A program made the translations under genes and the position numbers. The notes under the pieces were generated by a model, which ran no database searches, was not told the origin of the DNA, and saw only the letters and a program-made list of their open reading frames with translations. This document shows, piece after piece, positions 43,839 to 61,753 of a stretch of 64,000 nucleotides of DNA. The stretch comes from an archaeon (GTDB lineage: Archaea; Nanobdellota; Nanobdellia; Woesearchaeales; JAADFO01): NCBI GenBank assembly GCA_043817075.1, contig JBDRHG010000022.1, positions 39,102-103,101 on the forward strand, read 5' to 3'. The number at the start of each line of letters is the position of its first letter. Within the stretch, counting starts at the first letter, position 1.

Positions 43839-44345
43839 CTATTCAGGTGGCTGTCCGCTGGAATGCTTACGGATCATCGCATGGATCTCACGTTCGACCC
43901 CTTCGGGCCTGTTGACGTATTTGAGCACGACATCAGGCGTCCGATCCTCTGCGGTGTGCAGGACGATGTCTCCTGCTTTGCTCAACCGATCCCAGATGGA
44001 GATGACTGTGGTGAGATTGACGATCTGGGAGTATGGTACCGATGCCCTCTTGATGACGAGGAACTTGAACTCTTTGAGCACATAATCATCATAGAAGGAA
44101 TACGTCGTCGAATGGAGGAACAATGACGCGATACCCACCCAAAGCAGGACGAGGATGAACGATCCGAGGCAGATATAGAAGATGGTGATGGGCGATCCGA
44201 ATATCATGATACCTGAGAAAAGCTGGTCGATCCCTGCGAGGAGGAGGAGGAGGAGAGCGATGATGCCCAGCGCGGCGTATTTTGCGAACTGCGGGACGAG
44301 GGCGTTTGGGATGTCCGGTTTGATGACGAGATGGGGCTGCTCCAT
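43839..44345 (-). CDS. Membrane protein with bacterial PH (bPH_2/YdbS-like) domain
   Basis: Two N-terminal TM helices, then YSFYDDYVLKEFKFLVIKRASVPYSQIVNLTTVISIWDRLSKAGDIVLHTA, which is typical of DUF304/bPH_2. This is the last GC-rich gene before the island. Confidence 0.75.
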   Translation of the reverse strand: MEQPHLVIKPDIPNALVPQFAKYAALGIIALLLLLLAGIDQLFSGIMIFGSPITIFYICLGSFILVLLWVGIASLFLHSTTYSFYDDYVLKEFKFLVIKRASVPYSQIVNLTTVISIWDRLSKAGDIVLHTAEDRTPDVVLKYVNRPEGVEREIHAMIRKHSSGQPPE

Positions 44346-44593
44346 GGGATGGCCGGGGGCATCGCGTCATAAAAAGATTACGCAATCGAACTTGAGAAGG
44401 GGAAGATACGGCTGCCAAACATGGGTAAAAAGTGCAGATACGGGCAAATAAATTCCTATTAAACCGAAAATCTTGTGCCTATTTCGAAAAATATTTATCA
44501 ACAGCAATATTTATACTGTAATGCTCCCAGAATTAGGGGGTAATAGATAAGGGGATAAAATTTGACGCTCTTATAAAATATATATTGAAAAAT

Positions 44594-44646
44594 AAGGATT
44601 TTTTTGATTAATCCTTTATTAGGATTTAAAAAGAACTTTAAATCCT
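44594..44646. repeat. Two adjacent hairpins sharing AGGATT / AATCCT arms near the island's left edge
   Basis: AAGGATT-N9-AATCCTT (44594-44616) and AGGATTTAAA-AAGAAC-TTTAAATCCT (44621-44646). Confidence 0.6.
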
Positions 44647-44700
44647 GACAATAGTTTGAATATATGGTGCTTTCTCCTATGAATACTGAAGTCTATTTTC

Positions 44701-44880
44701 CTATGGTAACTCGTTTTCGAGGATTATTCTGTTTAATTTGTTGTATAAATTTTTATGACATCGAATACTTCCTTCAATATTATTGACTGAACTCAATGTG
44801 TCACCAATTCTTATCGCAATGCCATTAGCTTTATTCTTATGTCTCCAAATGGATACATTATCCAGGTTTATTGTTTTCAT
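44701..44880 (-). CDS. Small hypothetical protein (59 aa)
   Basis: ATG at 44880 is preceded by GAGGTGG 8 nt upstream (the track ORF begins at an upstream TTG). I recognised no domain. Confidence 0.4.
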   Translation of the reverse strand: MKTINLDNVSIWRHKNKANGIAIRIGDTLSSVNNIEGSIRCHKNLYNKLNRIILENELP

Positions 44881-44954
44881 ACCGTACCACCTCAACCAAG
44901 GTTATCATCAACTGATTAAAAGTTTGTGGTAAAATAGATAGAAATCAATTGCAA

Positions 44955-45185
44955 CTAAAGTTTTCCATTGTGTTTCTTGTCAAATGCATAGAGCTGCTCA
45001 TCCACCTTATCTGGGGATAGGTCTGTCTGGTCTCGGATTCTGTATATTTCATCAGCATAGTTCATGTAGATAGCAATGGTGTATTGGCGCATATATGTCT
45101 TTTTAGCGAAGAGAACCTTGTAAGCTTTTACATTGATGATTGGAAAGATGTTGGACCTGAGAAATTTAAGAATTGCGCTAGCCAT
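44955..45185 (-). CDS. Small hypothetical protein (76 aa)
   Basis: ORF in AT-rich DNA. I recognised no domain. Confidence 0.4.
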   Translation of the reverse strand: MASAILKFLRSNIFPIINVKAYKVLFAKKTYMRQYTIAIYMNYADEIYRIRDQTDLSPDKVDEQLYAFDKKHNGKL

Positions 45186-45238
45186 CGGAAAGACCTAGGT
45201 TAAAGGCATATCCTTCATCTAATTAATGTTAGCCAAAA

Positions 45239-45453
45239 TTTTCTTACTGCCTCCTCCGTTGGTAAACCTCGAATCCCTTAGATAGGTGCCTTCGTTAAAT
45301 CGAGAAAGAGAAAACGGTTTTTCAATAACAAAGCTACTAAACCTAACAATGATTTAACGACTACATTTCATTCCGTCCAAATTTTTACTTACTTTAAAAC
45401 GGACGAGAAAGGGGGCTGGTGCTACGCACATATTGCCTTTTACTTCGTAAAAG
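45239..45453 (+). repeat. Repeat arm A: four sequence blocks plus a CTTCG-loop hairpin, matched in inverted order-preserving fashion by arm B (50874..51003)
   Basis: The blocks are TTTTCTTACTGCC (45239-51), AGATAGGTGCC (45280-90), TTTTTACTTACTTTAAAA (45382-99) and GGACGAGAAAGGGGGCTG (45401-18). The hairpin is CTTTTA-CTTCG-TAAAAG (45437-53). Confidence 0.7.
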
Positions 45454-45469
45454 AAGATTTGTATTAATC

Positions 45470-46441
45470 TTAAAAGTATGAACCTAAACTCTGTTGATTT
45501 TTATCTTGTTCTTTTTTCCTACTTTTTTTACCTTTCTGACTATTTTGAATGTAGTCTCGATATTCGGCAGAAGTCATGCTTTCTATCTTGGATATTTTTT
45601 TCTGAATTTTATCGTATCTTATTGATGGTCTGAATTTTAAAGTGTCATCTGATAATTCACCTACTTCTGGAAAAATTCTCAGTGCACATCGAACCAGAGA
45701 CTTCATTTTATTGTCTGATAAAACGCTGTCATTTTGTTGTCTTTGGATAAAATCAGCCATTAGTGATTCCCTATTAAGAAGCTGCACTTGGTGTGATAGA
45801 AGCCTTTTCGTAATCTCTGCCACCAAAACGTTTTCTGGCGATTCAGGTGAGTTAAATAAAACTGTCTTGATCGGCTTGGCAAGGAAACCATCTTGGCTCA
45901 TTTTTGTTTCCAGATCTTGATCATGTGTGTGGTTTCCATAAACTTTCTTTATTTTATGATTCCCATCTTGGTCTGGTTCTGATACTACCCATACAACAAT
46001 GTTTGTTTCATAGCCTTCTTCTTGTTGCACTTCTTCAATTATTGATATTATTTTTTCAATTTCTTCTTGTTTGTCAAAACATACAACCAGAATCTCGTTA
46101 TCATGATCATCATTTATGAATACTTCTTTGAATCTATCGTTTTTGCCGTAAAAAAGTAGTTGTTCTTTGAATCTATCATCTGATTCATCTATATACGATT
46201 TGCATTCTACAGTAATGCTTTTTTTCTTTATTGAGTTGTTCAAGAATCCATCGCTTGGTCGGAAGTTATCTCCAAATATTGTTTCAAATTCTTCTCTGAA
46301 CTTTTTTATGTCGAAGTTATATCCATAGTCCCTTTTGAGGAGGCCATTCTCTGCTACTGGTGACTCTGTTGTAGATACAGATAATGCAAGATTTGCGATG
46401 AGATTCGCAAGAACATCATGAGGACGCATCGATTTGACCAT
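45470..46441 (-). CDS. Hypothetical protein (~323 aa), last gene of the six-gene operon
   Basis: The ORF is open from GTG 46453, and ATG 46441 is preferred. It overlaps the upstream gene's end. The C-terminus is Lys-rich and I recognised no domain. Confidence 0.65.
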   Translation of the reverse strand: MVKSMRPHDVLANLIANLALSVSTTESPVAENGLLKRDYGYNFDIKKFREEFETIFGDNFRPSDGFLNNSIKKKSITVECKSYIDESDDRFKEQLLFYGKNDRFKEVFINDDHDNEILVVCFDKQEEIEKIISIIEEVQQEEGYETNIVVWVVSEPDQDGNHKIKKVYGNHTHDQDLETKMSQDGFLAKPIKTVLFNSPESPENVLVAEITKRLLSHQVQLLNRESLMADFIQRQQNDSVLSDNKMKSLVRCALRIFPEVGELSDDTLKFRPSIRYDKIQKKISKIESMTSAEYRDYIQNSQKGKKSRKKEQDKNQQSLGSYF

Positions 46442-47552
46442 AATGTTCACCAATATTTATTGAAGGATCTACTCTTGATTGTAAAGCAGAGAGTATTTTT
46501 GACATGGCTTCATGTTCTGGCGGTTCGCCAAGAGTTGGAGCTATAGTGATTTGTTTTTTATCTGTGGATATGTAGTATTTGTTTCCTGTTTCCATATCCA
46601 TGACTTCTGTGATAAAATAAGTGTCATCTTCATCTTTCTCAAAAAGCATTATTTTGAATTCTGATAAATATCCTATATTCAGCATTTTCATAAGATTGTC
46701 AAACCAGTTTTCGTAAAATGCGGTTGACATATCCAATCGAATAACTTGAAGATTGTCAAGGGTGACGGTGTGAATGTCAATATTGCTTCTTTGTTCCACC
46801 TTGATTTGGTAATTCAAGCGGCTGGATAATATGTTTTTCAAGTGTTCGGAGTAATCAAGAATTCCTTTTCCGACTTCAATAAAATCAAGTATTGAGCCTG
46901 AATATAAAGCAAATTCTCCTCTATCAGACAACGATAGTTTGCTTCCAAGACCTCCATTTCGAGATACTTTGTATTTTCCTCTTTTAACATAGCACAGTTC
47001 TTCAAATTTTCCGTAGTGAAACCTTCTGACTTCTGATATATCTTCCTTCTTTCGTGGAATCCAGTTTCTACTGCTACCTTTTCTTTTTTTGGAACTTACA
47101 TCTCTATATTCAATGGTAAACTCAAGAAGCTCTGATTTTGAATCTGCATAGTAGTTTTTTACAAATTGGTTGAAGTTCTCAAGAAACTTTGATCCGAGCC
47201 AAGGCTTCCAAAGGGCTCTAATACTATACAAAAGTCTGTTAAACTGTTCATATTCTGGATGGTCTGCATAAGTGAATATAGCGTATTTGTTATTTCTTTC
47301 AAACTCCTTAATGAAAAAATATGTTTCCTCCTGATTATCGTTCCTTCTGAGAATTATGACTGTAAAATCATCTTCAGGAGTTTTTGCAAGGTCTGCTTGC
47401 CAGGTTTCCGAATAAGAATTGTAATTTAGGACTGCACTTTGAAAGACATTATCAATTTGCTGGAGATTGAGAACAAAGTAACCTCTGATAGTCTTCTTTT
47501 TCTCTCTATGGTCCTGTAGGAATTGATTGAAACTGAGTGTTGACTTAACCAT
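46416..47552 (-). CDS. Hypothetical protein (378 aa), fifth gene of the operon
   Basis: The start lies 3 nt after the stop of the DUF262-HNH gene. I found no recognisable domain, NTPase motif or TM segment. Confidence 0.7.
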   Translation of the reverse strand: MVKSTLSFNQFLQDHREKKKTIRGYFVLNLQQIDNVFQSAVLNYNSYSETWQADLAKTPEDDFTVIILRRNDNQEETYFFIKEFERNNKYAIFTYADHPEYEQFNRLLYSIRALWKPWLGSKFLENFNQFVKNYYADSKSELLEFTIEYRDVSSKKRKGSSRNWIPRKKEDISEVRRFHYGKFEELCYVKRGKYKVSRNGGLGSKLSLSDRGEFALYSGSILDFIEVGKGILDYSEHLKNILSSRLNYQIKVEQRSNIDIHTVTLDNLQVIRLDMSTAFYENWFDNLMKMLNIGYLSEFKIMLFEKDEDDTYFITEVMDMETGNKYYISTDKKQITIAPTLGEPPEHEAMSKILSALQSRVDPSINIGEHYGQIDASS

Positions 47553-47554
47553 CT

Positions 47555-48649
47555 TTATCCTTTCTTAGATTTTTCTCTATGGTCATCCCTACATAACATT
47601 TGACAATTTTCATCAATAGATTTTCCGCCTTCACTCCAAAGTTTGATATGGTCAGCTTCCATTTCTTCTATTTTGAAATGTTTTTTACATTTAGGACATA
47701 TACCTTTTTGTCTTTCGTATGCCTTCCTTTTTTGCTTATCATTAAAAGTTCGAATATTAAGATATTTTTCATCTCTTATCAAAACATATGGGTAAATACC
47801 TTTCTGATTCGTAACGTCTTCATCTTGCATTAATTCAGAGATTTCTTTTTCTAGTTTTTTAGTATCATATTTTTTGCTTCTGAATTTATTATACAACTCT
47901 CCCCAATTAACTCCTTTCATTTCTCGTCTATAATTTGGAAAAGTATTTCTTACCCATTCTATTACTTTCTGAAAATATCCCCATAACTCGTTTGCATTTT
48001 TATCGTGTTGGTGTTTAGACATATATTCCTCTATCTTCCCGTTATTAATCCACAACAAAACTGTTTCTAGAAATTCTTGTCTGATTGGCGAACCAGTTAC
48101 TAATTGCCCTCCGTCACTCGCTAAAAGATATGCTGCACAATTAGTTTTACTAAATTTTAACTTAGCATCTGAAAGCCATGTTCCCGTGTATACTGAATTT
48201 CGAAGCTCTTGTTCAGTTAGTTTTTCTCCAGAGATATTTACAATTCTGAACCAATTTAATTTTTCTCTTTCATTTCCTTCACAAAAATAGATCATCAACT
48301 CATAATTTAATATTTGATTTTGTTCATCTCCTGTCAAACTATGGAAGTATTTCTCGTTTATTGAAAAATCTCCTGCAACATACTGAGCAATACTAATTGT
48401 TCTTTGCTGTCCATCCAAAACCTCAAAATTTCCGTCAGGTTTTTTTACCCAATACATAATATTTAGTGGAAAATCTTTTCTCACAGTTTCAATCACTTCA
48501 TTTCTCTGCTTCTCTTTATAGATAAACTCCCTCTGGTATTTTGGACGAATATCTAATTTTCCACCATATGCAGTAACTCCTTCTTCTGCACTGTCTTTAT
48601 ACTCTTTTACTACTTCTCTTATTGGGATTTTATGTAGTTCTATCTTCAT
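47555..48649 (-). CDS. DUF262 (ParB-like/GmrS-type) domain fused to a C-terminal HNH endonuclease
   Basis: IRPKYQREFIY and LDGQQRTISI are the DUF262 signature motifs. The C-terminal CPKCKKHF...ADHIKLWSEGGKSIDENCQMLCRDDHREKS is a canonical HNH (C-x2-C ... H-x ... N ... C-x2-x-H). There is a 4-nt overlap with the methyltransferase gene. Confidence 0.85.
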   Translation of the reverse strand: MKIELHKIPIREVVKEYKDSAEEGVTAYGGKLDIRPKYQREFIYKEKQRNEVIETVRKDFPLNIMYWVKKPDGNFEVLDGQQRTISIAQYVAGDFSINEKYFHSLTGDEQNQILNYELMIYFCEGNEREKLNWFRIVNISGEKLTEQELRNSVYTGTWLSDAKLKFSKTNCAAYLLASDGGQLVTGSPIRQEFLETVLLWINNGKIEEYMSKHQHDKNANELWGYFQKVIEWVRNTFPNYRREMKGVNWGELYNKFRSKKYDTKKLEKEISELMQDEDVTNQKGIYPYVLIRDEKYLNIRTFNDKQKRKAYERQKGICPKCKKHFKIEEMEADHIKLWSEGGKSIDENCQMLCRDDHREKSKKG

Positions 48650-49725
48650 TTTGGGCTTTTTAGTTTAATTAGAATACGACCATAGAGTCGTTTTCCATTT
48701 AAATAACCTCGGTCAATTTTTCCTTTCCATTTTGGTTTAATCAGTTTAGGCAATAAACCCTCCTTTACGCTATAATCACAACCTAAAATCTCAAATTGTT
48801 TTGGATTATATTTATTCAGAAATGTGATTGGAACTCCCATAACACCACCATAATCTCTTGGAATTTCGTAAAATCTTGATACTTCGATAGCTTTGTAATT
48901 GTCATATTCAGGATATTCTTTTGGTGAGTATTTTTTATACAAATCAAGTTCTTCATAGCGTTTTGGGGTGTCCAAATTTGTAAACCATAAAATACGTCCC
49001 ATGCTAAAATATTTTTTACCTCCCACAATTTTTTTTCTTGACTCTGTTGGTATATCATAATCCATAGGGACTTGAAACCATTTGGTACCCCCATTATCGT
49101 AACCAAACCATAATTTGTTATCTTTGACTAAACTGAAAATCTCTTTGTAGGTAGTAGCATTTTGATCTCCTAGAATCAAAAATTTCTTACCATATTTTAC
49201 AAGCTGTAAAACATATTCACGAAATAGAGAAAATGGCGGATTAGTGACAACTATGTCAGCTTCCTTGAGTAGCTCTATACATTCATTGCTACGAAAATCA
49301 CCATTGCCCTTAAGATGTGAGGACGTATTAGCATCATGCTTTAGTAACCACTCAACATCTGTGAGATCTATGGCCCCATCAGCATTAGCATCAGGAACTT
49401 CAGATATTTCAATTTTAAAAGGGGTTTTACCTTGAGGTTTTAATCCAGCTACTTCAAATAACTTCAGCTGACCCCCAGCAATCATAGATTTATCATAGGT
49501 TGTGGTGATTATCTTTTTGAGTTTCAAAGAGTTAAAGTTTGCGGCAAAATACTTGAAAAAGTTACTTTCGAATGGATCATCGCAATTGCAATATACAATT
49601 TTTCCTTTAAATTGTTCTTTATAATACTTTAACTCCTTCTCAATATCAACAAGCTGAGTATAAAACTCGTCATTCTTCGCCTTATTTGCTCTTTGCAAAT
49701 TTTTATTTAATGACTTAGTTGCCAT
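48646..49725 (-). CDS. N6-adenine DNA methyltransferase (EcoRI-methylase-like family by recollection)
   Basis: IVVTNPPFSLFREY contains the NPPF catalytic motif IV. The N-terminal KNDEFYTQLVDIEKELKYYKEQFKGKIVYCNCDDP resembles the EcoRI_methylase family signature. Confidence 0.85.
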   Translation of the reverse strand: MATKSLNKNLQRANKAKNDEFYTQLVDIEKELKYYKEQFKGKIVYCNCDDPFESNFFKYFAANFNSLKLKKIITTTYDKSMIAGGQLKLFEVAGLKPQGKTPFKIEISEVPDANADGAIDLTDVEWLLKHDANTSSHLKGNGDFRSNECIELLKEADIVVTNPPFSLFREYVLQLVKYGKKFLILGDQNATTYKEIFSLVKDNKLWFGYDNGGTKWFQVPMDYDIPTESRKKIVGGKKYFSMGRILWFTNLDTPKRYEELDLYKKYSPKEYPEYDNYKAIEVSRFYEIPRDYGGVMGVPITFLNKYNPKQFEILGCDYSVKEGLLPKLIKPKWKGKIDRGYLNGKRLYGRILIKLKSPK

Positions 49726-49727
49726 AA

Positions 49728-49874
49728 TTAAACACTACCTTTCTCCATTTTTAATTGTGCTTCCATCATTATTTCTACTTGACGAGAAACTAATAACCCT
49801 TTCTTCTTGCAAAGCTCTCTATATTTGTCATAAAGTTCAGAATTTACTCTTAATGTGATATTTTTTGATTCCAT
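49728..49874 (-). CDS. Ribbon-helix-helix (CopG/Arc-like) protein, 48 aa, not in the ORF track (below its size cutoff)
   Basis: Hand translation gives MESKNITLRVNSELYDKYRELCKKKGLLVSRQVEIMMEAQLKMEKGSV, with a beta-strand ITLRV followed by two helices. The stop lies 2 nt before the methyltransferase ATG. Confidence 0.6.
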   Translation of the reverse strand: MESKNITLRVNSELYDKYRELCKKKGLLVSRQVEIMMEAQLKMEKGSV

Positions 49875-49882
49875 TTTAACCT

Positions 49883-50797
49883 TTATTTATTTTTTTCATA
49901 ACTTTGTTTTATTAGCGATAGTAAAACAGGCAATTCTTCAGAATTTGAAAATGAAACTTCATAATCTCCATTCCCCCAATGACCTACATTTGAAACATCT
50001 CGTGTAATTGAATCAATATCTTTAAGTTGTCCCTTAGACAGATTAAGCCAAAATTTTATTTTATTCTTTTGTGGCAAGAGATCTACAAAATTTCTATCTG
50101 CTTTAAACGCAATGTATTTCTTTTTTGAGATTACTTCAATATTTTCATCAATAGATAAAATCTGATTTTTTAATTCGTCATATAATGATTTAATTTCTTC
50201 TGAACAATGGCTTAAATGGTCTTCTTCAGTGTAAACTTTTACTTCACTGCTTACTTTCTCAACAACATCGCTTTTTTTACTAATCTTGTTTATTGATTCA
50301 GAATTCTCATGGGACCTTAATCTTGTATATTGGATTAAATCATTTTCATATCTTGATATTTCCCACAATTCAATCGGCAAATCCTTAAAATTAATCGCTT
50401 GTTGTTGATATTTTGAAAATGCAGGAGAAACAAATAAAACTCTTGATTGCGACCAATCAACATTATCTCGTTTTATAGTCTTATCACAATTCTCATTATA
50501 CTCTAAAATAAATTCTGCCTTATTATTAAGCATTAAAGAAAGATAAGCATATCCTTGATCTATAACACTAAAATTCTTATCCCTCTTATATTCTATTATT
50601 ACAAAACTATTATTTTCATTATCATATGCGAGAGTATCTATTCTTAACCCATTCAAAGAGAATTCTGATTTAACTATCTGTAACCCAAAAATATCGCTTA
50701 AATTCTTCTCTGTCAAATCCTGAATTTCTTTCTCTAACTTAAAAGATAATTGTTTTATTCTACTAAGATTATTTGATGAATTCTTGAATATTGACAT
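49883..50797 (-). CDS. RecB-like PD-(D/E)xK nuclease-fold protein (HSDR_N-like N-terminus) with DUF5655-like C-terminus; first gene of the operon
   Basis: The motif series is LRIDTLAYD ... VIIEYKRD ... DQGYAY (D, ExK, QxxxY). The C-terminal YIAFKADRNFVDLLPQKNKIKFWLNL...VGHWGNGDYEV resembles DUF5655. Confidence 0.7.
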   Translation of the reverse strand: MSIFKNSSNNLSRIKQLSFKLEKEIQDLTEKNLSDIFGLQIVKSEFSLNGLRIDTLAYDNENNSFVIIEYKRDKNFSVIDQGYAYLSLMLNNKAEFILEYNENCDKTIKRDNVDWSQSRVLFVSPAFSKYQQQAINFKDLPIELWEISRYENDLIQYTRLRSHENSESINKISKKSDVVEKVSSEVKVYTEEDHLSHCSEEIKSLYDELKNQILSIDENIEVISKKKYIAFKADRNFVDLLPQKNKIKFWLNLSKGQLKDIDSITRDVSNVGHWGNGDYEVSFSNSEELPVLLSLIKQSYEKNK

Positions 50798-50823
50798 TAG
50801 TATAATACAAATATAATCAAATA

Positions 50824-50831
50824 TATATAAA
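50824..50831 (-). promoter_or_regulatory. TATA box for the six-gene operon (minus strand AACATTTATATATA)
   Basis: It is centred about 30 nt upstream of ATG 50797 and has the same AACATTTATATA context as host promoters. Confidence 0.45.
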
Positions 50832-50873
50832 TGTTGTTATACCTATGTTCTTTTTCAGAAAAAGAACCAAAAA

Positions 50874-51003
50874 CAGCTCCCTCTCTCGTCCTAACGGACA
50901 TATTGTCTGCTACGCAGTAATTGATTTTAAAGTAAGTAAAAACTACGGCACCTATCTGATTCTTCGGTAGTAAGAAAACTCTGCGGATTTACTTCGTAAA
51001 TCC
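50874..51003 (-). repeat. Repeat arm B: reverse complement carries the same four blocks as arm A in the same order, plus a CTTCG-loop hairpin in direct orientation
   Basis: The reverse complement reads TTTTCTTACTACC ... AGATAGGTGCC ... TTTTTACTTACTTTAAAA ... GGACGAGAGAGGGAGCTG, giving block matches of 12/13, 11/11, 18/18 and 16/18. The hairpin is GGATTTA-CTTCG-TAAATCC at 50985-51003. Confidence 0.7.
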
Positions 51004-51083
51004 TTGGGGACGCTGCGCTTTCGGACTCCGTCCTCACCCTCGGCTAACAGGAACCGATGTTATACACAATAAAGAAAAAGCCC

Positions 51084-51380
51084 TTAGAAAAATGTTAGTT
51101 TTAGTAATATAGTTGCAACTACAAAAAATGATACTTTGAATTTCCATCCGTTAATTTTTATCTTAAAGTATTTTGTTTCAAGATTGTTCCCTGTGAATCT
51201 AATAATTATGGCTTGTGCTATGGCTGTCGTAGCAAAGGCTAAAACAAGACTTGTTGCCAAATCTGTTATTAAAGGCCAATATTGTTTCAGATCAAACCTA
51301 TCCAAAACTAAAAAAACGGCCACTAAAGAAATTAGTATTAAACCAGCTTTTTCATTAAATTCACGTTCTGGATCTTTCAT
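51084..51380 (-). CDS. Small membrane protein (98 aa, ~3 TM helices)
   Basis: Hydrophobic segments LILISLVAVFLVL, LVLAFATTAIAQAIII and FFVVATILLKLTFF. I recognised no domain. Confidence 0.5.
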   Translation of the reverse strand: MKDPEREFNEKAGLILISLVAVFLVLDRFDLKQYWPLITDLATSLVLAFATTAIAQAIIIRFTGNNLETKYFKIKINGWKFKVSFFVVATILLKLTFF

Positions 51381-51493
51381 GCCAATAAGTAATTCAAGAC
51401 TTCTATTTATAAATTCCGAAACATGAATCGCGAATTCAGATAGCTCACACGTTCAAAACGTTTATATACATTAGTTACTTCGCGATAAGGTAG

Positions 51494-52357
51494 ATGGTAC
51501 AAATTCGTATAACTGAAGATTTTGAAGAAGTTGCTGAACAAGAAGAAAAGCTGTCTATTTCAGATATGAAGAAGAAAGAAAAGTTTTCTCATTTAACTTT
51601 TCATGGTAACCCCAAAAGACTCATATCTTTTATTAAAAATGAATTAGATAATAATGGCTATCAAGTAAAATATGATGGTCTTAGTGGTCTGGATGGGGGC
51701 ACAATGAATGATATTAAAGATGTATCCCTAAGAGTGTATGCTGAAAAAAGAAGTGATATTAAGGGAAAAATTGATTTACGTATTCCGAGAAGTCTAATCT
51801 TTTTAACAGGTATTGGATCTTTATTATTTATTTTTTCAGTCCTTTTTTTTAAAGCAAATTGGAGTGGACTCGGAGCAACATCCATGGTTATTTCATTGAC
51901 ATTAATGGCTGGCGGGATATTCTTAATTATTAAAGGTCCAAAACAAAAAATGTTTTCTTATCATCCATCATCTCATATTTTATGGCTGGTTGGAGAAGGA
52001 GAAGCTTTTTTTGGAACCAAAACGCAAGAATCTAAAAGCGGACATGATCTAAAATCAGGTAGTGTTAGTGCAATAAAGACATCTTACCTTACTAGTGATA
52101 TGGATGTTTATATTGCCGCATCTGCTAAGAGTTTGGATACTCTTTATAGAGAAAAGTTATTGAGAGATAAAGAGAAACCAAATCCTTCTTTCTGGGACTT
52201 AATTAAGGGGACAAAAAACAATATTAAAGAGATTAGCATGGAGAATGAAGAGGAATATATTAGCCTACCAAAAGACAAAGACGAACATAAAAAACATATC
52301 TCTCGTGAGATGGAAGATATATCAAAAAAAATGGGTAAGTTTATGGGTATAGATTAG
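51494..52357 (+). CDS. Hypothetical membrane protein (287 aa, two central TM helices)
   Basis: AAACGTTTATATAC has its TATA at 51461-51468, about 30 nt upstream of the ATG. The TM helices are LIFLTGIGSLLFIFSVLFF and MVISLTLMAGGIFLII. I recognised no domain. Confidence 0.6.
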   Translation: MVQIRITEDFEEVAEQEEKLSISDMKKKEKFSHLTFHGNPKRLISFIKNELDNNGYQVKYDGLSGLDGGTMNDIKDVSLRVYAEKRSDIKGKIDLRIPRSLIFLTGIGSLLFIFSVLFFKANWSGLGATSMVISLTLMAGGIFLIIKGPKQKMFSYHPSSHILWLVGEGEAFFGTKTQESKSGHDLKSGSVSAIKTSYLTSDMDVYIAASAKSLDTLYREKLLRDKEKPNPSFWDLIKGTKNNIKEISMENEEEYISLPKDKDEHKKHISREMEDISKKMGKFMGID

Positions 52358-52614
52358 GTTGGTTATGCTCTAACTCTGTACTTTCCGACAAATTTCCTCC
52401 AAGGGTTGCTTCTGAAGGTTCAATGCCTTCGGTTTAAGAATGTAATACACTCCCTGAAAACTACTGAAATCGACATGGTCATATCGACGATGAAAATCCG
52501 GACTCATACATTGTCTGTTCAGAATACTGGCGTCTTTATCTGTACTAAATGAAGTAATAGAAACATTTACAACTATCACAGATAAGGATGGGTATCATCA
52601 ACGATATTAGCTAT

Positions 52615-52809
52615 TCAGTTCTTAATGATATTGTGGATGCATTCTCCAAACTCATTGCTATGTATGCATTCTTTTAATCTGTCGATGCATGCACCGTGTT
52701 CTTGAGTTCTTCCTGGTTGGCCTTTAGGTATGGGGTTTTGGACCGCGCATACTGCTTGGATTGCTCCAAGTCGTTGCCCTATTGTTTCTGGTTGTTTGTT
52801 GGTTTCCAT
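52615..52809 (-). CDS. Small hypothetical protein (64 aa)
   Basis: The ORF lies downstream of, and co-oriented with, the wHTH genes. I recognised no domain. Confidence 0.45.
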   Translation of the reverse strand: METNKQPETIGQRLGAIQAVCAVQNPIPKGQPGRTQEHGACIDRLKECIHSNEFGECIHNIIKN

Positions 52810-52863
52810 TGTTATCCCTCCAACTAGTGTAAGTTGCTTGTCCTAATATGCTTTGTTCATCGC

Positions 52864-53193
52864 TTAAGCGTTGACAGCTTCTTCTGGTAGAAGGATGCAG
52901 GTGAGGACTTCTTCTTTGGTGATGACCGCTACCTTTTGGTTGATGCGAAAACTCTTCCTGATGACCTTTTTTTCAATGGAATAGAGCTTTCTCTTTCCAT
53001 CTTGGTTGGATTCTACGACTCCAAGTTTTTGCATTTTTTTCAGGTGTCTGCGGATCAGCACGTCCTGTTTGATAAGATCATATCGATCAGTTATGGCGAA
53101 GAGTGTCTTTGCTAGGCTTGTCGTGCTTAGCGATACCCCTTGCCGGTGGAGCACTGTGAGGATCTTGAGATCGATGCTATCAAAGATTGTCAA
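52864..53193 (-). CDS. Winged-helix DNA-binding protein (MarR/ArsR-like fold)
   Basis: DLKILTVLHRQGVSLSTTSLAKTLF...IRRHLKKMQKLGVVESNQDGKRKLYSI has an HTH plus a wing hairpin. Confidence 0.7.
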   Translation of the reverse strand: MTIFDSIDLKILTVLHRQGVSLSTTSLAKTLFAITDRYDLIKQDVLIRRHLKKMQKLGVVESNQDGKRKLYSIEKKVIRKSFRINQKVAVITKEEVLTCILLPEEAVNA

Positions 53194-53509
53194 TCAACTC
53201 CTTGAATATCTTTTTTCTGTTTCTTGCCTTTGTTCTGGCTCGCCCTGTAAGGGGGTTTCCGAGTAGGAATGAGTGGAGTTTATGTGTTCTGAGGACTTTC
53301 CAGGCGTTCTTGCTGAGTGCATAGCGTACCGGTCTTGCACCCTTTGCTTTGACTACGAGGTTTTTTAGCCGCAAACGTTCAAGGGCTTTGTAGCCTTCGA
53401 GTCTTGAGATTGGTAGAACGTCTTCTATCTGGGTTATGCTCATGGGTCCGTCAGCGATTCGTAGGGCCTCCAAAAAGTGCCAGTACGACACATAAAACTC
53501 TCTTGTCAT
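53180..53509 (-). CDS. Winged-helix DNA-binding protein
   Basis: MSITQIEDVLPISRLEGYKALERLRLKNLVVKAKGARPVRYAL. It overlaps the next wHTH gene by 14 nt. Confidence 0.7.
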   Translation of the reverse strand: MTREFYVSYWHFLEALRIADGPMSITQIEDVLPISRLEGYKALERLRLKNLVVKAKGARPVRYALSKNAWKVLRTHKLHSFLLGNPLTGRARTKARNRKKIFKELIDNL

Positions 53510-53577
53510 GCCTGTTATCCCCTCCTGTTATGTATGGATGTTATGGTTATTCGCTGCCAAAAAAGGCAGCGAAAGCA

Positions 53578-54225
53578 TTATTCGTCATGTTCGTTGGCAT
53601 AATATCTGCCATTATCATCTCTGGAAATTTCTCCGACCTGCTCAAGCTGCTTAAGAAGCTTATTCGCTCGCGGTTGTGATAATGCTAAAGCATCACACAC
53701 ATCCTTTTCAAGAACACCCTCAGGGGATGACTTGACCAATTCAATGACTTTCGCTTGGGTTGGACCCATATCTGAATGGCTTACTGGTACATCGGGCTTA
53801 GAATTTAAGGAGACTAAATCCTGCCAGGGCATTTTAAGCAGAACCGAGAGTTGAGAATCAGTTATGTTAGCAAACCGTTGCCCTATGAGGTATTTCTTTG
53901 CCGAGATAAGCTCGATCATCATTTCCCTCATTTTGTTCTGAAAGGATTCCAGGTCCTGAGCTTTGTCCTTCTGCAGATTCACAATCTGGTCCTGGAGGGA
54001 TTGGGAGTCTCCACTATTATGATGTTCAAGGACTTTCTTTAGCTGACCGTTCTGTTCGTATAACTCCTTGAAGGACTCTATGAATTTTTCGCTTCTCACG
54101 ATTTCCGGGAGGTTTCTGAGCCTTTCGCATTCCTCTCGCAGATAGTTGCGACCAGAGTCAGGATCTCTCAGCGATACCGGATTGTGCCTCTGAAAAAAGG
54201 AGTCAGGTTGAGGTTGCCCGATCAT
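53578..54225 (-). CDS. Coiled-coil protein with C-terminal winged-helix domain
   Basis: The preferred start is ATG 54225 (TAATG overlap with the upstream stop, AGGGAGGA Shine-Dalgarno-like sequence). The C-terminus reads TQAKVIELVKSSPEGVLEKDVCDALALSQPRANKLLKQLEQVGEISRDDNGRYY. Confidence 0.7.
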   Translation of the reverse strand: MIGQPQPDSFFQRHNPVSLRDPDSGRNYLREECERLRNLPEIVRSEKFIESFKELYEQNGQLKKVLEHHNSGDSQSLQDQIVNLQKDKAQDLESFQNKMREMMIELISAKKYLIGQRFANITDSQLSVLLKMPWQDLVSLNSKPDVPVSHSDMGPTQAKVIELVKSSPEGVLEKDVCDALALSQPRANKLLKQLEQVGEISRDDNGRYYANEHDE

Positions 54226-54422
54226 TAAGAGTCCTCCCTTGCACAAACAACATAGCCATCTAGGAAGGCGTAGAGGCTTTTGTCTAGACAGAAGATTACC
54301 GGGCGTTCAGACACCTTTTTCGCCAGTCTGAACAAGTCTTCCTTGCTCTGAAGTTCAATTAATGTTAATACTTCAGGCAAGAAAATGTGCTTTGCTTGAA
54401 TAGGTTTAATCAGGCCGTTCAT
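54225..54422 (-). CDS. Small hypothetical protein (65 aa) coupled to the polymerase gene
   Basis: There is a 4-nt overlap with the end of the polymerase ORF. I recognised no domain. Confidence 0.5.
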   Translation of the reverse strand: MNGLIKPIQAKHIFLPEVLTLIELQSKEDLFRLAKKVSERPVIFCLDKSLYAFLDGYVVCAREDS

Positions 54423-56674
54423 TTGCCCTCCAACTTTTTCAGTCGTTCAATGATCTTCTCACTGAGTTTTGGCACAGCGTCCTCTCCCAGCCGTTTCCTG
54501 ATCTCGAACTCTGTTTGGCGGCTTATACCTGCTGCTCGGAGTTCAGGAGAAGAAGCCTTCCGGAACTTCGAAACCAACTTTGAGATATTCACGACTTCTT
54601 GTGGTGCTTCACCTTCAAGGATTTGGAGGTCCACGTTCTTGACCTGTTTCCCGATATACCGAAAGCCATCAACAGTCAGATGTCTCCTTTTCATCCAACC
54701 CTCCTCTGACCCGTTCTCGTACTTGTCTTCAGGATGGTTGAGGAAGCGAATGAATGTGTCTTCCAATGTGGCCCAGTACTGAGAACCTTGCAGCACTTCT
54801 CCGGTCTCGTAATTGATAAACGGCTTATGCACAACACTTCGAGGGTCCTTACAGAAGGGGGCGATAGGCTTGACCATTCGACCGTCTTTGAGACTGGAAG
54901 GTTGGCCTACAATGAAGAAATTAAATGGTTTCACCTGCTTGCAGAAAGGTCTGCCTTCGTTCATTTTTGAGAACCGATCCAATACATTCATGGACGTGAT
55001 GCTGAGCTTGCTCAACGCAGGTAGACCTCTGTACCGCTCAAGCACGGAAGGAGGATCAGCGAGTCCAAGTGATACGGAGACGATGTCGTGCCAGAACTTC
55101 TTCATCCATGCATCGCCTTTTCCGCCAAAAGGATTCATCAAATAGCCAAGGCCGTGAGCCTTCCACCATCCATCAACAATTTCTATGCCTTTCTTGGTTT
55201 GTTCAAAGAGGCAGTACCGCTTTGCTGAGATCCCGAAAAACCATTTTTTCCGGATCTCGACCTCTAGAAAGGGAGCATTCTTCCCGAGAGGGCTTAGTGG
55301 CTGAAAGAACTTGACAAGTTCATCTTCATAGCCTACAGGGCAAAAAATCGAATCGGTATCGTTGTAGATTGGTCTTGTTCCTATCTGCTTTAACTTTGCC
55401 TCACCCAAACACAAGAGAAGCCGACCTCCGGCAGCGATGGATGAACCGATCCAAGGGGCAAAGTAGGGTCCTGGCTCCTCATACTCCATCTCTGCTTCAA
55501 ACTGCTCATTACTATAAACACTGACGTTCTCCAGTGACTCCTGAGGGTTGAGTTCTATTGAGATGCCGTAAAGGGAGCTGGCTACGGTTTTAAGCATCTT
55601 AGCATACATTCGTTCCCTTGATTCTTCCGGATATTTCTTGAGTTCAGCACGCCGATTCAGAAGCTTAAGTGCGATATCATCCTTAGAAGGGTTGAGTTCC
55701 ATTCCCAATACTTTTACAGTTTTCAGGTCTTGCTGGCCTACGGCCTCAAACCGGAAAGCTTTTGTGATCTTCGGCGTTCTTCCGGTGAGCAACTTTGAAG
55801 CTATAAGGTCTGGCAATGAATAATTCGCTTTGGACTTCATCCTTACGTGGGAAAGGGAGAGCTTTGGGAGCCTGCCAGAACCGCAGAGGGCATTAACTGG
55901 TAAGAGGTATTCTCCAGGAGGCATCTCGCAAGTCACCGCTAGACGCGGCCAGAGCGACTTATCCTGCAAGCTTTCAATCGTTACATGATCCAGTAAGCGT
56001 TGAACTTCTTCAGTACAGTCCTTTACTAAAATTTTCTCTGCAAAGAGAAGGCTTTGGAGTTTTAAAAGAAAGAAGAGTGAGATGTACATACCATTGAAGT
56101 CAAGGACAGAAATCTCAATGGGCTGCTTTCGAATGAAAAGCTGGCATAACCCTCCATAATAGGTTGAAAAGACCTTTCCTGCCGGACCCAGAAGATTATT
56201 CTCAATAGGCCAAGATGACCTTAAACCCATCTTGCGAAGGATATATTTTACGATGGTTGCCGTGGAGTATATCTTTCCAAGTTCCAGATCGCCCAGCCCT
56301 AACTTTGCATATTCATTTTTCAGGGAATGATACAATTCTGCCGTTGCAGACACATCAGCTAGGTTGTACTCAATGAGTTTAGGTGATATTTTAAAGTCGT
56401 TATTATCAGTCTGTTTGAAATGAGTCGTATTCAGTATTTTGCTCGCTTGATCCAAAGTTATATGACGCTTTTGAAGCAGAACCGCAGTCGCAGCCTTCAA
56501 ATCGATGATCTTGCCCGTAGAAAACTCCTTGCGCCCTCTTGGCCGTGGGTAAGTGAAGGAGATGAACGACGAGATTCGATCTCTTGGGATGATACGAATT
56601 CGTGGGAAGTCATTTGATGAAAGGAACTGCAAAGAGAACCCTTTAGACTTATTTCCTTGCTTTCTTCGTATCAT
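54419..56674 (-). CDS. polB: Family-B DNA polymerase, main part (Exo III plus all polymerase motifs)
   Basis: Exo III is EYNLADVSATAELY. Motif A is VLDFNGMYISL, motif B is KMLKTVASSLYGIS and motif C is IYNDTDSIF. The KxY motif is SAKRYC. Confidence 0.9.
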   Translation of the reverse strand: MIRRKQGNKSKGFSLQFLSSNDFPRIRIIPRDRISSFISFTYPRPRGRKEFSTGKIIDLKAATAVLLQKRHITLDQASKILNTTHFKQTDNNDFKISPKLIEYNLADVSATAELYHSLKNEYAKLGLGDLELGKIYSTATIVKYILRKMGLRSSWPIENNLLGPAGKVFSTYYGGLCQLFIRKQPIEISVLDFNGMYISLFFLLKLQSLLFAEKILVKDCTEEVQRLLDHVTIESLQDKSLWPRLAVTCEMPPGEYLLPVNALCGSGRLPKLSLSHVRMKSKANYSLPDLIASKLLTGRTPKITKAFRFEAVGQQDLKTVKVLGMELNPSKDDIALKLLNRRAELKKYPEESRERMYAKMLKTVASSLYGISIELNPQESLENVSVYSNEQFEAEMEYEEPGPYFAPWIGSSIAAGGRLLLCLGEAKLKQIGTRPIYNDTDSIFCPVGYEDELVKFFQPLSPLGKNAPFLEVEIRKKWFFGISAKRYCLFEQTKKGIEIVDGWWKAHGLGYLMNPFGGKGDAWMKKFWHDIVSVSLGLADPPSVLERYRGLPALSKLSITSMNVLDRFSKMNEGRPFCKQVKPFNFFIVGQPSSLKDGRMVKPIAPFCKDPRSVVHKPFINYETGEVLQGSQYWATLEDTFIRFLNHPEDKYENGSEEGWMKRRHLTVDGFRYIGKQVKNVDLQILEGEAPQEVVNISKLVSKFRKASSPELRAAGISRQTEFEIRKRLGEDAVPKLSEKIIERLKKLEGK

Positions 56675-58418: not shown

Positions 58419-58491
58419 GATTTGATTGGTAATATGGCAAAGTTTATATATAGCTATAATTCTCATCTAATCAGAAATAGAGGAATTCATC

Positions 58492-60483: not shown

Positions 60484-60489
60484 CGATAC

Positions 60490-60916: not shown

Positions 60917-60972
60917 GGTATCACCTGTGGAATTTTTCGGTCTGTGTGGTTTCAGATCAGAAAAAAATGTTT

Positions 60973-60986
60973 CAACAATATTGTGG
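60973..60986. promoter_or_regulatory. Operator-like palindrome CAACAATATTGTGG upstream of the 99-aa/Zn-ribbon/cas1 transcription unit
   Basis: This is a 13/14 match to the perfect palindrome at 61754-61767. It lies in the intergenic region about 60 nt upstream of ATG 60916. Confidence 0.5.
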
Positions 60987-61730: not shown

Positions 61731-61753
61731 TTTTTTACCACCTTTACGAATCT

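What the first reader, a model, noticed from the sequence alone, without database searches (positions are those of the whole stretch)
45239..51003. Order-preserving modular inverted repeats bracket exactly the six-gene operon
- **Arm A (45239-45428):** it contains four blocks, TTTTCTTACTGCC, AGATAGGTGCC, TTTTTACTTACTTTAAAA and GGACGAGAAAGGGGGCTG.
- **Arm B (50874-50978):** its reverse complement contains the same four blocks in the same order, with matches of 12/13, 11/11, 18/18 and 16/18. The indels between blocks differ in size: 28 versus 8 nt, 91 versus 4 nt, and 1 versus 33 nt.
- **What lies between:** the arms enclose only the operon 45470..50797 and its promoter.
- **Mixed orientation:** each arm is followed on the plus strand by a hairpin with the same CTTCG loop, CTTTTA-CTTCG-TAAAAG at 45437-53 and GGATTTA-CTTCG-TAAATCC at 50985-51003. 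So inverted and direct components are mixed. GCTACGCA and CATATTG also occur in both arms, but rearranged.
- **Possible interpretations:**
  - degenerate terminal inverted repeats of a non-autonomous, casposon- or transposon-derived cargo cassette;
  - a pair of MITE-like insertions;
  - recombination sites for cassette exchange or inversion.
- An 18-nt perfect match plus three co-linear blocks is very unlikely by chance in 64 kb.
Basis: seen in the sequence. Interest (0 to 1): 0.65.

Follow-up and report, generated by a model that had tools for sequence, protein, structure and literature searches.

The report
Conserved end-arms of archaeal defence cassettes
The two inverted arms are real. They are the standard left and right end-pieces of a widespread family of mobile, integron-like gene cassettes that carry interchangeable anti-virus (restriction) genes, and the real recombination sites lie just outside the arms.

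Summary
**Observation: confirmed.** All four blocks, their match scores and the unequal spacers are exactly as described, and they are far beyond chance.

**The arms are not private to this operon.**
- In a biofilm metagenome they are 40-400x deep against 0-9x for the operon.
- Collection scans recovered about 80 related loci, mostly labelled Woesearchaeota/Nanoarchaeota.
- At least 14 of these are complete units with a long arm A and a short arm B, always convergent. They bracket 1.2-7 kb of varied cargo: type I, II, IIG and III restriction-modification, helicases and nucleases.

**Where the edges are.**
- Both arms end outward in GTTAGCC (window 45228-45234 and 51042-51048).
- They abut hairpin sites built like integron attC sites: R''..TAAC, complementary L boxes, then GTTA.. 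R'.
- One cassette presence/absence difference, and one identical cassette found in two contexts, place the crossover at G|TT.

**Interpretation.**
- The arms are a cassette "chassis", often together with a 48-aa RHH-like gene. They are not casposon or transposon terminal repeats, and not MITEs.
- All GAA-triloop mini-hairpins lie on one strand, and the innermost block co-varies between partner arms.
- I infer that the arms pair as single-stranded DNA to assist site-specific recombination. This step is not demonstrated.

**Verdict:** new variant of a known kind; interest about 0.6.

The parts
45228..45234 (+). GTTAGCC: the R'-type box and left cassette boundary (G|TTAGCC). The attC-like partner hairpin expected upstream is not recognisable in the window.
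   Evidence: The outer 7-mer is GTTAGCC in 31 of 38 A-type arms. L086 differs from L073 by an insertion exactly at this GTTAG. The window's own upstream flank has no R''/L''/L' architecture.
45235..45455 (+). Arm A (the long arm), in order:
- b1 45239-45251
- b2 45280-45290
- a self-folding A-specific insert with stem 45292-45303 / 45350-45360
- b3 45382-45399
- b4 45401-45418
- the 38-nt 'unit' 45419-45456, which includes hairpin CTTTTA-CTTCG-TAAAAG at 45437-45453
   Evidence: It is 90.8% identical over 229 nt to L046. 39 A-type copies were found. Metagenome depth rises at about 45226 and falls at about 45454.
45470..50797 (-). Cargo operon, in transcription order:
- PDC-S18/DUF5655 protein, 49883-50797
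- 48-aa RHH-like protein, 49728-49874
- EcoRI-family N6-methyltransferase, 48646-49725
- DUF262(GmrSD_N)-HNH type II endonuclease, 47555-48649
- unknown 378-aa protein, 46416-47552
- unknown 327-aa protein, 45470-46453
   Evidence: Pfam and PADLOC scans. The RHH-like assignment rests only on sub-threshold hits. The 378/327-aa pair recurs next to other restriction-modification systems.
50822..50831 (-). TTTATATATA: a TATA-like element 25-34 nt upstream of the first start codon. It is the likely operon promoter (inferred).
   Evidence: Sequence. Relatives carry TTTATAAATA at the same place inside arm B.
50845..50983 (-). Arm B (the short arm), in order on the + strand:
- hairpin hp1 50847-50867
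- b4' 50874-50891
- a 33-nt insert containing the CTGC-GTA-GCAG mini-hairpin
- b3' 50925-50942
- b2' 50947-50957
- b1' 50966-50978
   Evidence: It is 92% identical over 115 nt to L038 and 94% over 86 nt to L046. 25 B-type copies were found. Metagenome depth profile.
50985..51041 (+). Hairpin GGATTTA-CTTCG-TAAATCC (50985-51003) followed by a GC-rich hairpin module (GGGGACGCTGCGCT...CCTCACCCTC). This module lies between arm B and the R'' box.
   Evidence: The same module stands in front of b1 in most B-type copies. Similar GC-rich modules precede R'' boxes that have no arms, in L094.
51042..51065 (+). Short attC-like site GGCTAAC-AGGAACCGAT-GTTATAC. It comprises the R'' box 51042-51048, fused L boxes with a GAT spacer, and the R' box 51059-65. 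It is the right cassette boundary, at G|TTATAC.
   Evidence: Near-identical short sites (GGCTAACAGGAATTCCGATGTTATAT and others) occur in relatives. Long forms with complementary L boxes occur in 17 of 34 flanks, against 1.75 in shuffles.

Best explanation
**What it is.** The region 45229-51059 is one integron-type gene cassette. Its composition (about 32% GC) and its relatives point to DPANN-archaeal-type DNA. It sits in a low-GC island beside a casposon core, in a host of about 55% GC.

**Where recombination happens.** The crossover sites are hairpin sites built like integron attC sites, and they abut the arms.
- On the left is GTTAGCC (45228-45234).
- On the right is GGCTAAC-AGGAACCGAT-GTTATAC (51042-51065).
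- Crossover is at G|TT.

**What the arms are.**
- Arms A and B lie just inside these boundaries.
- They are the conserved, polar 5' and 3' end-modules (a "chassis") of a family of cassettes that carry interchangeable defence cargo.
- A 48-aa RHH-like gene next to arm B often belongs to the chassis.
- No recombinase is carried, so movement must depend on a tyrosine recombinase supplied in trans.
- An XerA/IntI-like enzyme lies beside a sister arm family in four loci.

**Shown.**
- Membership of the family.
- The boundaries.
- Cargo turnover.
- The polarity of the arms.
- Hairpin loops confined to one strand.

**Inferred: how the arms work.**
- On the bottom strand the shared blocks b1-b4 of the two arms pair into a long bulged stem.
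- The arm-specific inserts fold away as stable GAA-triloop side hairpins.
- In the integrated state this loops out the multi-kb cargo and brings the two flanking attC-like sites together.
- In the excised circle it extends the attC stem.
- Either way, large cargo could then be excised and inserted like a short cassette.
For: **Multicopy.** Arms are 40-400x deep against 0-9x for the operon in runs X1/X2, and many contigs leave the arms into unrelated DNA.

**Same arms, different cargo.**
- L038 has arm B, then RHH, MTase and REase, then arm A.
- L046 carries a type I/IIG-like system instead.
- A b1..b2 pattern scan gave 52 metagenome loci. Eleven hold two matches, always convergent, always one long plus one short.
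- Cargo is restriction-modification of types I, II, IIG and III, a Schlafen-like helicase, a PLD nuclease and an AAA ATPase.

**Boundaries.**
- The outer box is GTTAGCC on both arms.
- L086 differs from L073 by an extra one-gene cassette of about 690 nt with its own hairpin site of about 150 nt. It is inserted exactly at GTTTAATAGGT-G|TTAG in front of arm A.
- L067 and L081 share a 5.76-kb unit at 99.97% identity in different contexts. The arm-B-side break falls at the AAC/GTT of the flanking site.

**attC-like architecture.**
- 17 of 34 distinct flanks have ..TAAC-(0-3 nt)-L''...L'-(1-4 nt)-GTTA.., spanning 49-158 nt.
- The L boxes differ in sequence but stay complementary.
- Shuffled flanks give 1.75.
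- GTTAGCC is the R' box of an archaeal attC that was selected for recombination assays with IntI1 (PMC9668308 supplementary data).

**Recombinase.** A 268-288-aa tyrosine recombinase lies divergently 50-230 nt from the GTTATAC edge of the sister arm family in L031, L039, L042 and L051.

**Pairing and strand polarity.**
- The inner block b4 matches its own partner better than other elements' partners: score 14.5 vs 8.5, with 0 of 10000 permutations as high.
- On the top strand CTTCG outnumbers CGAAG 138 to 4, and GCTTCGC outnumbers GCGAAGC 44 to 0, in 55 distinct arms plus flanks. Cargo shows no such bias.
- d(GCGAAGC) is the classic hyper-stable DNA mini-hairpin (PMC13037366).
- With the cargo replaced by a linker, the bottom strand folds into the predicted long stem with side hairpins, z = -6.3. 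An inverted repeat gives this by construction.
Against: - The window's own left flank has no recognisable partner hairpin site. This copy may be a fossil, or may have been inserted at a secondary site.
- No integrase is present in the window.
- The adjacent recombinases lack the IntI-specific insert and score as archaeal XerA. They lie beside only 4 of 27 sister-family loci.
- A strict RYYYAAC...GTTRRRY screen found no canonical attC.
- On the arm-A side of the L067/L081 pair, homology runs 62 nt beyond G|TTAGCC and ends at no obvious box. The L096/L105 boundary is also unclear.
- Co-variation of b4 could reflect common descent or gene conversion rather than selection for pairing.
- The stem model rests on prediction only. 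No circular junction or strand-switch joint was seen in the metagenome contigs.
- The loci were retrieved with b1 and b2 fixed, so conservation of those two blocks is not independent evidence.
Confidence: 0.6

Rival explanations
1. The arms are regulatory insulators. On this reading the inward-facing blocks are operators for the chassis RHH-like protein and/or oligo-T terminators. They would shield a toxic restriction-modification operon from read-through coming from either side of the array. Recombination would not involve them at all.
For: - A 48-aa RHH-like gene (58-86% identical in most copies) travels with arm B in about 18 loci, whatever the cargo.
- b1 and b3 share a T-run plus CTTACT core, and each arm carries at least two copies.
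- Inward strands carry T4-T5 runs. Oligo-T termination in archaea is my own knowledge, not a tool result.
- A conserved TATA-like promoter lies just inside arm B.
Against: - Three elements with reversed cargo (L092, L093, L102) keep the arms but have no RHH hit.
- All hairpin loops lie on one strand in both arms. Symmetric double-stranded operators would not be expected to show that.
- Metatranscriptome contigs gave only trace coverage, which is uninformative.
- The RHH fold itself rests only on sub-threshold hits.
Confidence: 0.2
2. The arms are asymmetric terminal inverted repeats of a non-autonomous DNA transposon. On this reading the differently spaced binding sites at the left and right ends resemble Mu or Tn7 ends. 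An unidentified transposase would mobilise the element in trans, and it would prefer hairpin or attC-like targets.
For: - The block order is preserved with conserved long/short spacing in every copy.
- b1 is outermost on both sides, and both arms end in GTTAGCC.
- The cargo is variable and includes no recombinase.
Against: - No target-site duplication is seen in the window or relatives.
- No 'L'-spacer-L''' empty-site junction was found.
- Copies of the same unit share 62-97 nt beyond the arm ends.
- A neighbouring cassette without any arms inserts at the same G|TTAG.
- No transposase recurs near about 80 loci.
- No Cas1 or PolB lies near them.
Confidence: 0.1
3. The arms are passive homology. 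On this reading they are conserved flanks left from one ancestral cassette. They persist because homologous recombination between arms of different cassettes swaps cargo, and they have no structural or binding role.
For: - Whole arms, spacers included, are 88-95% identical between elements with unrelated cargo.
- Similarity is mosaic: REase 86% but MTase 57% amino-acid identity between the window and L038.
Against: - This does not explain why the two arms are inverted copies of one another with conserved asymmetric inserts.
- It does not explain the strict one-strand polarity of loop sequences.
- It does not explain a second, unrelated arm family (type C/D) built on the same plan.
Confidence: 0.1

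Closest known systems
Integron gene cassettes and attC sites, including the archaeal integrons/CALINs of Ghaly et al. 2022 (PMC9668308)
   Same: - Cassettes form arrays and are separated by imperfect-palindrome sites of 49-158 nt.
- The sites have conserved outer boxes (..TAAC / GTTA..), inner boxes that vary but stay complementary, and an asymmetric spacer (A vs GAT).
- Insertion is at G|TT.
- The sites all face the same direction (L094).
- Cassettes carry no recombinase.
- Restriction-modification cargo is common.
- The GTTAGCC box is shared with an archaeal attC that Ghaly et al. selected for recombination assays with IntI1.
   Different: - Cassettes here are multi-gene (up to 7 kb).
- They carry conserved inverted arms of 140-230 nt inside both boundaries, plus a chassis RHH-like gene.
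- The outer boxes do not strictly fit RYYYAAC/GTTRRRY.
- Some sites are only 24-26 nt long.
- The only neighbouring recombinases lack the IntI-specific domain.
pdif (Xer-dependent) modules of Acinetobacter plasmids (e.g. PMC6449649, PMC13141974)
   Same: - Discrete accessory-gene modules without their own recombinase.
- Bounded by sites for a host Xer-type tyrosine recombinase.
- Shuffled between replicons.
- The termini of a module read as inverted repeats.
   Different: - pdif sites are 28-bp double-stranded cores (11-6-11) in alternating orientation.
- Here the sites are hairpins of variable length, all facing the same direction.
- The long inverted arms have no counterpart in pdif modules.
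Asymmetric transposon ends (Mu attL/attR, Tn7 left/right ends) and MITE-flanked composite elements
   Same: Inverted ends with the same ordered sites at different spacing on the two sides. The cargo lies between them.
   Different: - No target duplication and no transposase.
- The boundaries lie outside the repeats.
- The four blocks are different sequences, not repeats of one binding site.
Casposon terminal inverted repeats (family 2; PMC4046053, PMC4779613)
   Same: The cassette lies next to a Cas1 + PolB casposon core in the window.
   Different: - The terminal repeat of related casposons (GGGATATATACATCT..TGAAATCGAAC) is unrelated to the arms.
- That repeat is absent from the window.
- The arms never accompany Cas1 or PolB elsewhere.

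Membership tests
Integron-type gene cassette / attC site | Outer R''/R' boxes that are inverted copies of each other (consensus RYYYAAC ... GTTRRRY) | tested here: inconclusive
   The AAC...GTT core and the box pairing are conserved: GGCTAAC/GTTAGCC and GTATAAC/GTTATAC. A strict-consensus screen found none. GTTAGCC is itself the R' box of an archaeal attC chosen for recombination assays.
Integron-type gene cassette / attC site | Inner L''/L' boxes that are complementary but variable in sequence, an unpaired asymmetric spacer and a variable loop; total size about 55-140 nt | tested here: met
   17 of 34 distinct flanks show this, against 1.75 in shuffles, with sizes of 49-158 nt. Example L-box pairs are GGAATTTAAC/GTTAAATTCC, GGGCTTAAAC/GTTTAAGCCC and GCGATTATCT/AGATAATCGC. 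The spacers are A on one side and GAT on the other. The window's own right-hand site is a 24-nt short form.
Integron-type gene cassette / attC site | Cassette insertion or excision by crossover at G|TT of the R' box | tested here: met
   L086 vs L073 shows an extra cassette, carrying its own site, inserted at G|TTAG. The arm-B-side break between L067 and L081 falls at GTT|/|AAC. This was shown in relatives, not at the window's own site.
Integron-type gene cassette / attC site | Neighbouring IntI integrase carrying the IntI-specific additional domain, plus an attI site | tested here: not met
   There is no integrase in the window. The recombinases beside the sister arm family match the integron-integrase model in two pieces, with the IntI-specific region missing. 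They score at the archaeal XerA threshold of 220 bits (189-229 bits).
Integron-type gene cassette / attC site | Recombination of the folded bottom strand | not testable with these tools
   Only indirect evidence is available: all GAA-triloop mini-hairpins lie on the bottom strand.
Casposon (terminal inverted repeats with target duplication around Cas1 + PolB) | The arms are the terminal inverted repeats of an element that encodes, or is mobilised by, a casposase | tested here: not met
   No Cas1 or PolB lies near about 80 arm loci. The terminal repeat of relatives is different and absent from the window. There is no target duplication.
TIR transposon / MITE pair | Terminal inverted repeats at the exact element ends, flanked by a target-site duplication; multiple solo copies | tested here: not met
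   There is no target duplication. Homology between copies runs beyond the arm ends. No arms-only (cargo-less) copy or empty palindromic target was found.
Xer/dif-type module (pdif-like) | 28-bp core of two 11-bp arms around a 6-bp spacer, in alternating orientation | tested here: not met
   The sites vary in length from 24 to 158 nt, form hairpins and face the same direction. Only the recombinase type (XerA-like) fits.

The most novel reading that the evidence does not exclude
The arms plus the RHH-like gene would form a self-contained "cassette chassis". It would be a structure-specific, recombinase-less carrier. Its two ends would zip together as single-stranded DNA, stabilised by GAA-triloop mini-hairpins confined to one strand. 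A multi-gene defence locus would then behave like a short integron cassette.

The chassis would be moved by an XerA-like recombinase rather than an IntI-type one. It would spread across archaeal lineages, from DPANN-type DNA into a casposon-bearing host of about 55% GC.

That would be a new class of integron-like system, one that extends the cassette paradigm to large cargo.
Probability: 0.25. Interest if true: 0.8.

Novelty: new variant of a known kind. Interest (0 to 1): 0.6.

Why it matters
- **Defence-gene turnover in archaea.** If correct, this explains how small-genome DPANN-type archaea and their neighbours exchange whole restriction-modification and other defence operons. The operons would plug into a standard carrier that sits in integron-like arrays.
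- **A sequence signature.** It gives a simple way to find such cassettes in metagenomes: GTTAGCC plus b1-b3, with TTC/GAA loops confined to one strand.
- **A testable gap in integron biology.** It asks how multi-kb cassettes can be recombined through folded single-stranded sites, and whether a Xer-type enzyme can do the work of an integron integrase.
- **Transfer between lineages.** Here a 32% GC cassette sits in a 55% GC host next to a casposon.

Tried and rejected
**Known RNA or tRNA.**
- Rfam gave no match at gathering threshold on the whole window, and none at E up to 1 on 45100-51150.
- ARAGORN found no tRNA.
- RNA folds of each arm alone are unremarkable, z = -1.4 and -1.9.

**Uninformative searches.**
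- Global MAFFT and cheap-gap local alignment of the arms were uninformative because of the large indels.
- The 18-mer b3 and a 16-mer from the unit gave only chance hits in viral contigs.
- An exact look-up of the window's own protein found nothing on record.

**Arms linked to the 378/327-aa gene pair.** Rejected. Relatives of the pair (L020-L026) have no arms.

**Casposon ends.**
- No inverted or direct repeat in the window links 44300-45240 with 50980-64000.
- The terminal repeat of relatives is absent.
- The casposon ends therefore remain unresolved, and whether the cassette lies inside the casposon cannot be told.

**Other checks.**
- The strict canonical attC regular expression gave no hits.
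- The flanking-site sequences were not found in the supplement of the archaeal-integron paper.
- Metatranscriptome contigs gave trace coverage only and carry no strand information.
- The second possible site at 52804 looks like chance.
- The idea that b4 variants encode the cargo's recognition site was rejected: the same variant accompanies different cargo.

Full report
**1.

Reading 45000-45600 and 50700-51300 and the repeat finder (I4, I13, I16, I17) confirm the four co-linear inverted blocks.

| Block | Arm A (+) | Arm B (-) | Match |
|---|---|---|---|
| b1 | 45239-45251 | 50966-50978 | 12/13 |
| b2 | 45280-45290 | 50947-50957 | 11/11 |
| b3 | 45382-45399 | 50925-50942 | 18/18 |
| b4 | 45401-45418 | 50874-50891 | 16/18 |

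- The spacers are 28/8, 91/4 and 1/33 nt.
- Window-wide, b3 and b4 each occur exactly twice even with three mismatches allowed, against 0.03 and 0.04 expected.
- The two CTTCG-loop hairpins lie on the + strand. A direct-orientation motif GCTACGCA-N3-ATTG-N1-2-TTTTA-loop-TAAAA is also real, at 45421-45452 and 50909-50941, both +.
- Between the arms lie six minus-strand genes:
  - a PDC-S18/DUF5655 protein;
  - a 48-aa RHH-like protein;
  - an EcoRI-family methyltransferase;
  - a DUF262-HNH type II endonuclease;
  - two unknown proteins of 378 and 327 aa.

**2. Context**

- GC drops from about 55% to 28-40% at about 44400 and stays low to the end of the window.
- The island also holds a protein-primed PolB (54419-56674) and a Cas1 (59293-60483), which together form a casposon core.
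- The Cas1 is 50-57% identical to casposases of Methanosarcinales and Methanomicrobiales.
- Two related casposons (L109, L111) have terminal repeats GGGATATATACATCT..TGAAATCGAAC. Nothing like this is in the window.
- No repeat ties the island's left edge to the rest of the window. The casposon ends are therefore unresolved.
- The cassette (about 32% GC) differs in composition from the casposon genes (about 44%).

**3. The arms are a multicopy family**

- In a biofilm metagenome that holds parts of this region, word depth is 40-400 over 45226-45454 and 50855-51006 but 0-9 over the operon. Many contigs run from the arms into unrelated DNA.
- A scan of one genome per species with the direct motif gave 28 loci, 27 of them genuine. 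Most are MAGs labelled Woesearchaeota or Nanoarchaeota, with some labelled Methanosarcinales. They often lie at contig ends and have nearly identical flanks.
- Two of these loci carry full copies of both window arms around different cargo:
  - L038 has arm B, then RHH, MTase and REase, then arm A.
  - L046 has arm A, then a specificity subunit, a type I/IIG-like enzyme and RHH, then arm B.
- A metagenome scan with b1..b2 gave 52 loci. Eleven have two matches, always convergent and always one long (A) plus one short (B), 1.2-5.9 kb apart.
- Further mapping added L092 and L100 (7.1 kb), so there are at least 14 distinct complete units.
- Cargo is almost entirely defence:
  - restriction-modification of types I, II, IIG and III;
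  - a Schlafen-like helicase;
  - a PLD nuclease;
  - an AAA ATPase.
- No locus carries Cas1, PolB or a transposase next to the arms.

**4. Where the unit really ends**

- Both arms end outward in GTTAGCC.
  - Arm A reads GTTAGCC-AAAA-b1. The outer 7-mer is GTTAGCC in 31 of 38 copies.
  - Arm B reads GTTAGCC, then a GC-rich hairpin module of about 65 nt, then b1.
- In the window this places the boxes at 45228-45234 and 51042-51048.
- Outside these boxes lie sites with the architecture ..TAAC-(A)-L''...loop...L'-(GAT)-GTTA...
  - 17 of 34 distinct flanks have it, with sizes of 49-158 nt.
  - The L boxes differ in sequence but remain complementary.
  - Shuffled flanks give 1.75.
- Short forms also exist, such as the window's GGCTAAC-AGGAACCGAT-GTTATAC at 51042-51065.
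- Arm A always follows an R' box and arm B always precedes an R'' box, so the unit is polar within the array. In L094 the sites all face the same way.
- Two natural experiments place the crossover.
  - L086 differs from L073 by one extra one-gene cassette, with its own site of about 150 nt, inserted exactly at GTTTAATAGGT-G|TTAG in front of arm A.
  - L067 and L081 share a 5.76-kb unit at 99.97% identity in different contexts. The arm-B-side break is at the AAC/GTT of the flanking site.
- This is the integron cassette plan. GTTAGCC is also the R' box of an archaeal attC that Ghaly et al. chose for their recombination assays with IntI1 (PMC9668308).

**5. What does not fit a canonical integron**

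- A strict RYYYAAC/GTTRRRY screen finds nothing.
- Some sites are only 24-26 nt long.
- The window's left flank has no recognisable partner hairpin.
- On the arm-A side, L067/L081 homology runs 62 nt past the box.
- The only recurrent neighbouring recombinase lies beside the GTTATAC edge of a sister arm family in L031, L039, L042 and L051.
  - It is 268-288 aa long.
  - It scores as archaeal XerA.
  - It matches the integron-integrase model only in two pieces, without the IntI-specific region.

**6. What the arms are**

- They lie inside the cassette boundaries and are conserved as whole modules. Arm A is 90.8% identical to L046 over 229 nt. Arm B is 92-94% identical to L038 and L046.
- The cargo between them is replaced. 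Cargo orientation can even be reversed, as in L092, L093 and L102.
- A 48-aa RHH-like gene (58-86% identical in most copies) sits directly inside arm B in about 18 loci. The fold assignment rests only on sub-threshold hits.
- In the window a PDC-S18 gene lies between arm B and the RHH-like gene. One metagenome contig joins 49881 to 50804 and so lacks that gene.
- A second arm family, type C on the left and type D on the right, is built on the same plan with different sequences. It shares with arm A only the 38-nt unit GGTGCTACGCACATATTGCC-TTTTACTTCGTAAAA-GAA.

**7. How the arms may work (inference)**

Three features argue for a role as single-stranded DNA.

- **Co-variation.** The innermost block varies between elements (GGGGGCTG, GGGGGGAATTCCG, GGGGCACGTTAATT, GGGGGCGTTC) but matches its own partner arm. 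The score is 14.5 against 8.5, with 0 of 10000 permutations as high.
- **Self-folding inserts.** The sequences that make the arms unequal fold on themselves: CGTTAAATC...GATTTAACG in arm A and CTGC-GNA-GCAG in arm B.
- **Strand polarity.** Blocks b1-b4 are inverted, yet every hairpin loop keeps the same strand.
  - On the top strand CTTCG outnumbers CGAAG 138 to 4 and GCTTCGC outnumbers GCGAAGC 44 to 0, in 55 distinct arms plus flanks. Cargo shows no such bias.
  - The bottom strand therefore carries GAA-triloop hairpins of the d(GCGAAGC) type, which are exceptionally stable in DNA (PMC13037366).
  - Integron attC sites are recombined as folded bottom strands (PMC5027507).

With the cargo replaced by a linker, the bottom strand folds into one long bulged stem, b1:b1' to b4:b4', with the inserts as side hairpins, z = -6.3. 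An inverted repeat gives this by construction.

I therefore propose that the arms zip the cassette ends together. In the integrated state this brings the two flanking sites side by side. In the excised circle it extends the attC stem. Either way a multi-kb cargo could be handled like a short cassette.

This mechanism is not demonstrated. The rivals cannot be excluded: RHH operators or terminators, ends for an unknown transposase, or passive homology handles.

**8. Verdict**

- The casposon, transposon-end and MITE readings are not supported.
- "Recombination sites for cassette exchange" is close to the truth, but the sites are the hairpins next to the arms, not the arms themselves.
- I found no description of such arm-bearing cassettes in the literature searched.
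- I rate it a new variant of a known kind, the integron-type cassette.

Noticed in passing
window 54419-56674 (-), 59293-60483 (-), about 51-64 kb: This is a casposon core: a protein-primed PolB and a Cas1 that is 50-57% identical to Methanosarcinales casposases, with HTH/RHH genes around them. The terminal repeat of the closest relatives (GGGATATATACATCT..TGAAATCGAAC) is absent, so the element's ends are not in the window or differ.
   Followed up: partly
window 49883-50797; run X2 joint 49881->50804: One metagenome contig joins 49881 to 50804 and so lacks the PDC-S18/DUF5655 gene. In relatives the 48-aa RHH-like gene sits directly inside arm B, so this gene looks like a later addition to the cassette.
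   Followed up: partly
window 45470-47552 (-); L020 10001-12086; L026 4758-5754: The two unknown genes (378 and 327 aa) form a conserved pair. The pair recurs next to a type I restriction-modification system plus a PD-(D/E)XK gene in an archaeal-looking contig. The 378-aa gene also occurs, cut by the contig end, in a Nanoarchaeota MAG. The pair is probably an accessory defence module with no family assignment.
   Followed up: partly
L029-L055 (e.g. L048 2897-3110 and 7424-7720): A second arm family exists. Type C is the left arm (G|TTATAC-GCAATTAAATTTTCAC..hairpins..38-nt unit) and type D is its inverted modular partner on the right. It brackets other restriction-modification cassettes. An XerA-like tyrosine recombinase lies beside it in L031, L039, L042 and L051.
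   Followed up: partly
window 60972-60988, 61753-61769, 61788-61804: A 17-nt palindrome TCCACAATATTGTGGAA occurs three times around ORF 61033-61782 in the casposon part. It may be an operator or a binding site.
   Followed up: no
window 58103-58292: Two tandem copies of 94 nt, spaced 96 nt start to start (79% identity), lie inside the RHH-domain ORF 58065-58466 (-).
   Followed up: no
window 51059-51084: Right after the cassette's short attC-like site, the sequence G|TTATAC-ACAATAAAG resembles the first 12 nt of a type C arm. It may be the truncated start of a further cassette, in front of the small membrane-protein ORF 51084-51380.
   Followed up: no
window 11385-40087: The high-GC host part encodes giant proteins of 2045, 3571 and 1971 aa. 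The last has a Big_13 Ig-like domain. The host itself was not identified.
   Followed up: no
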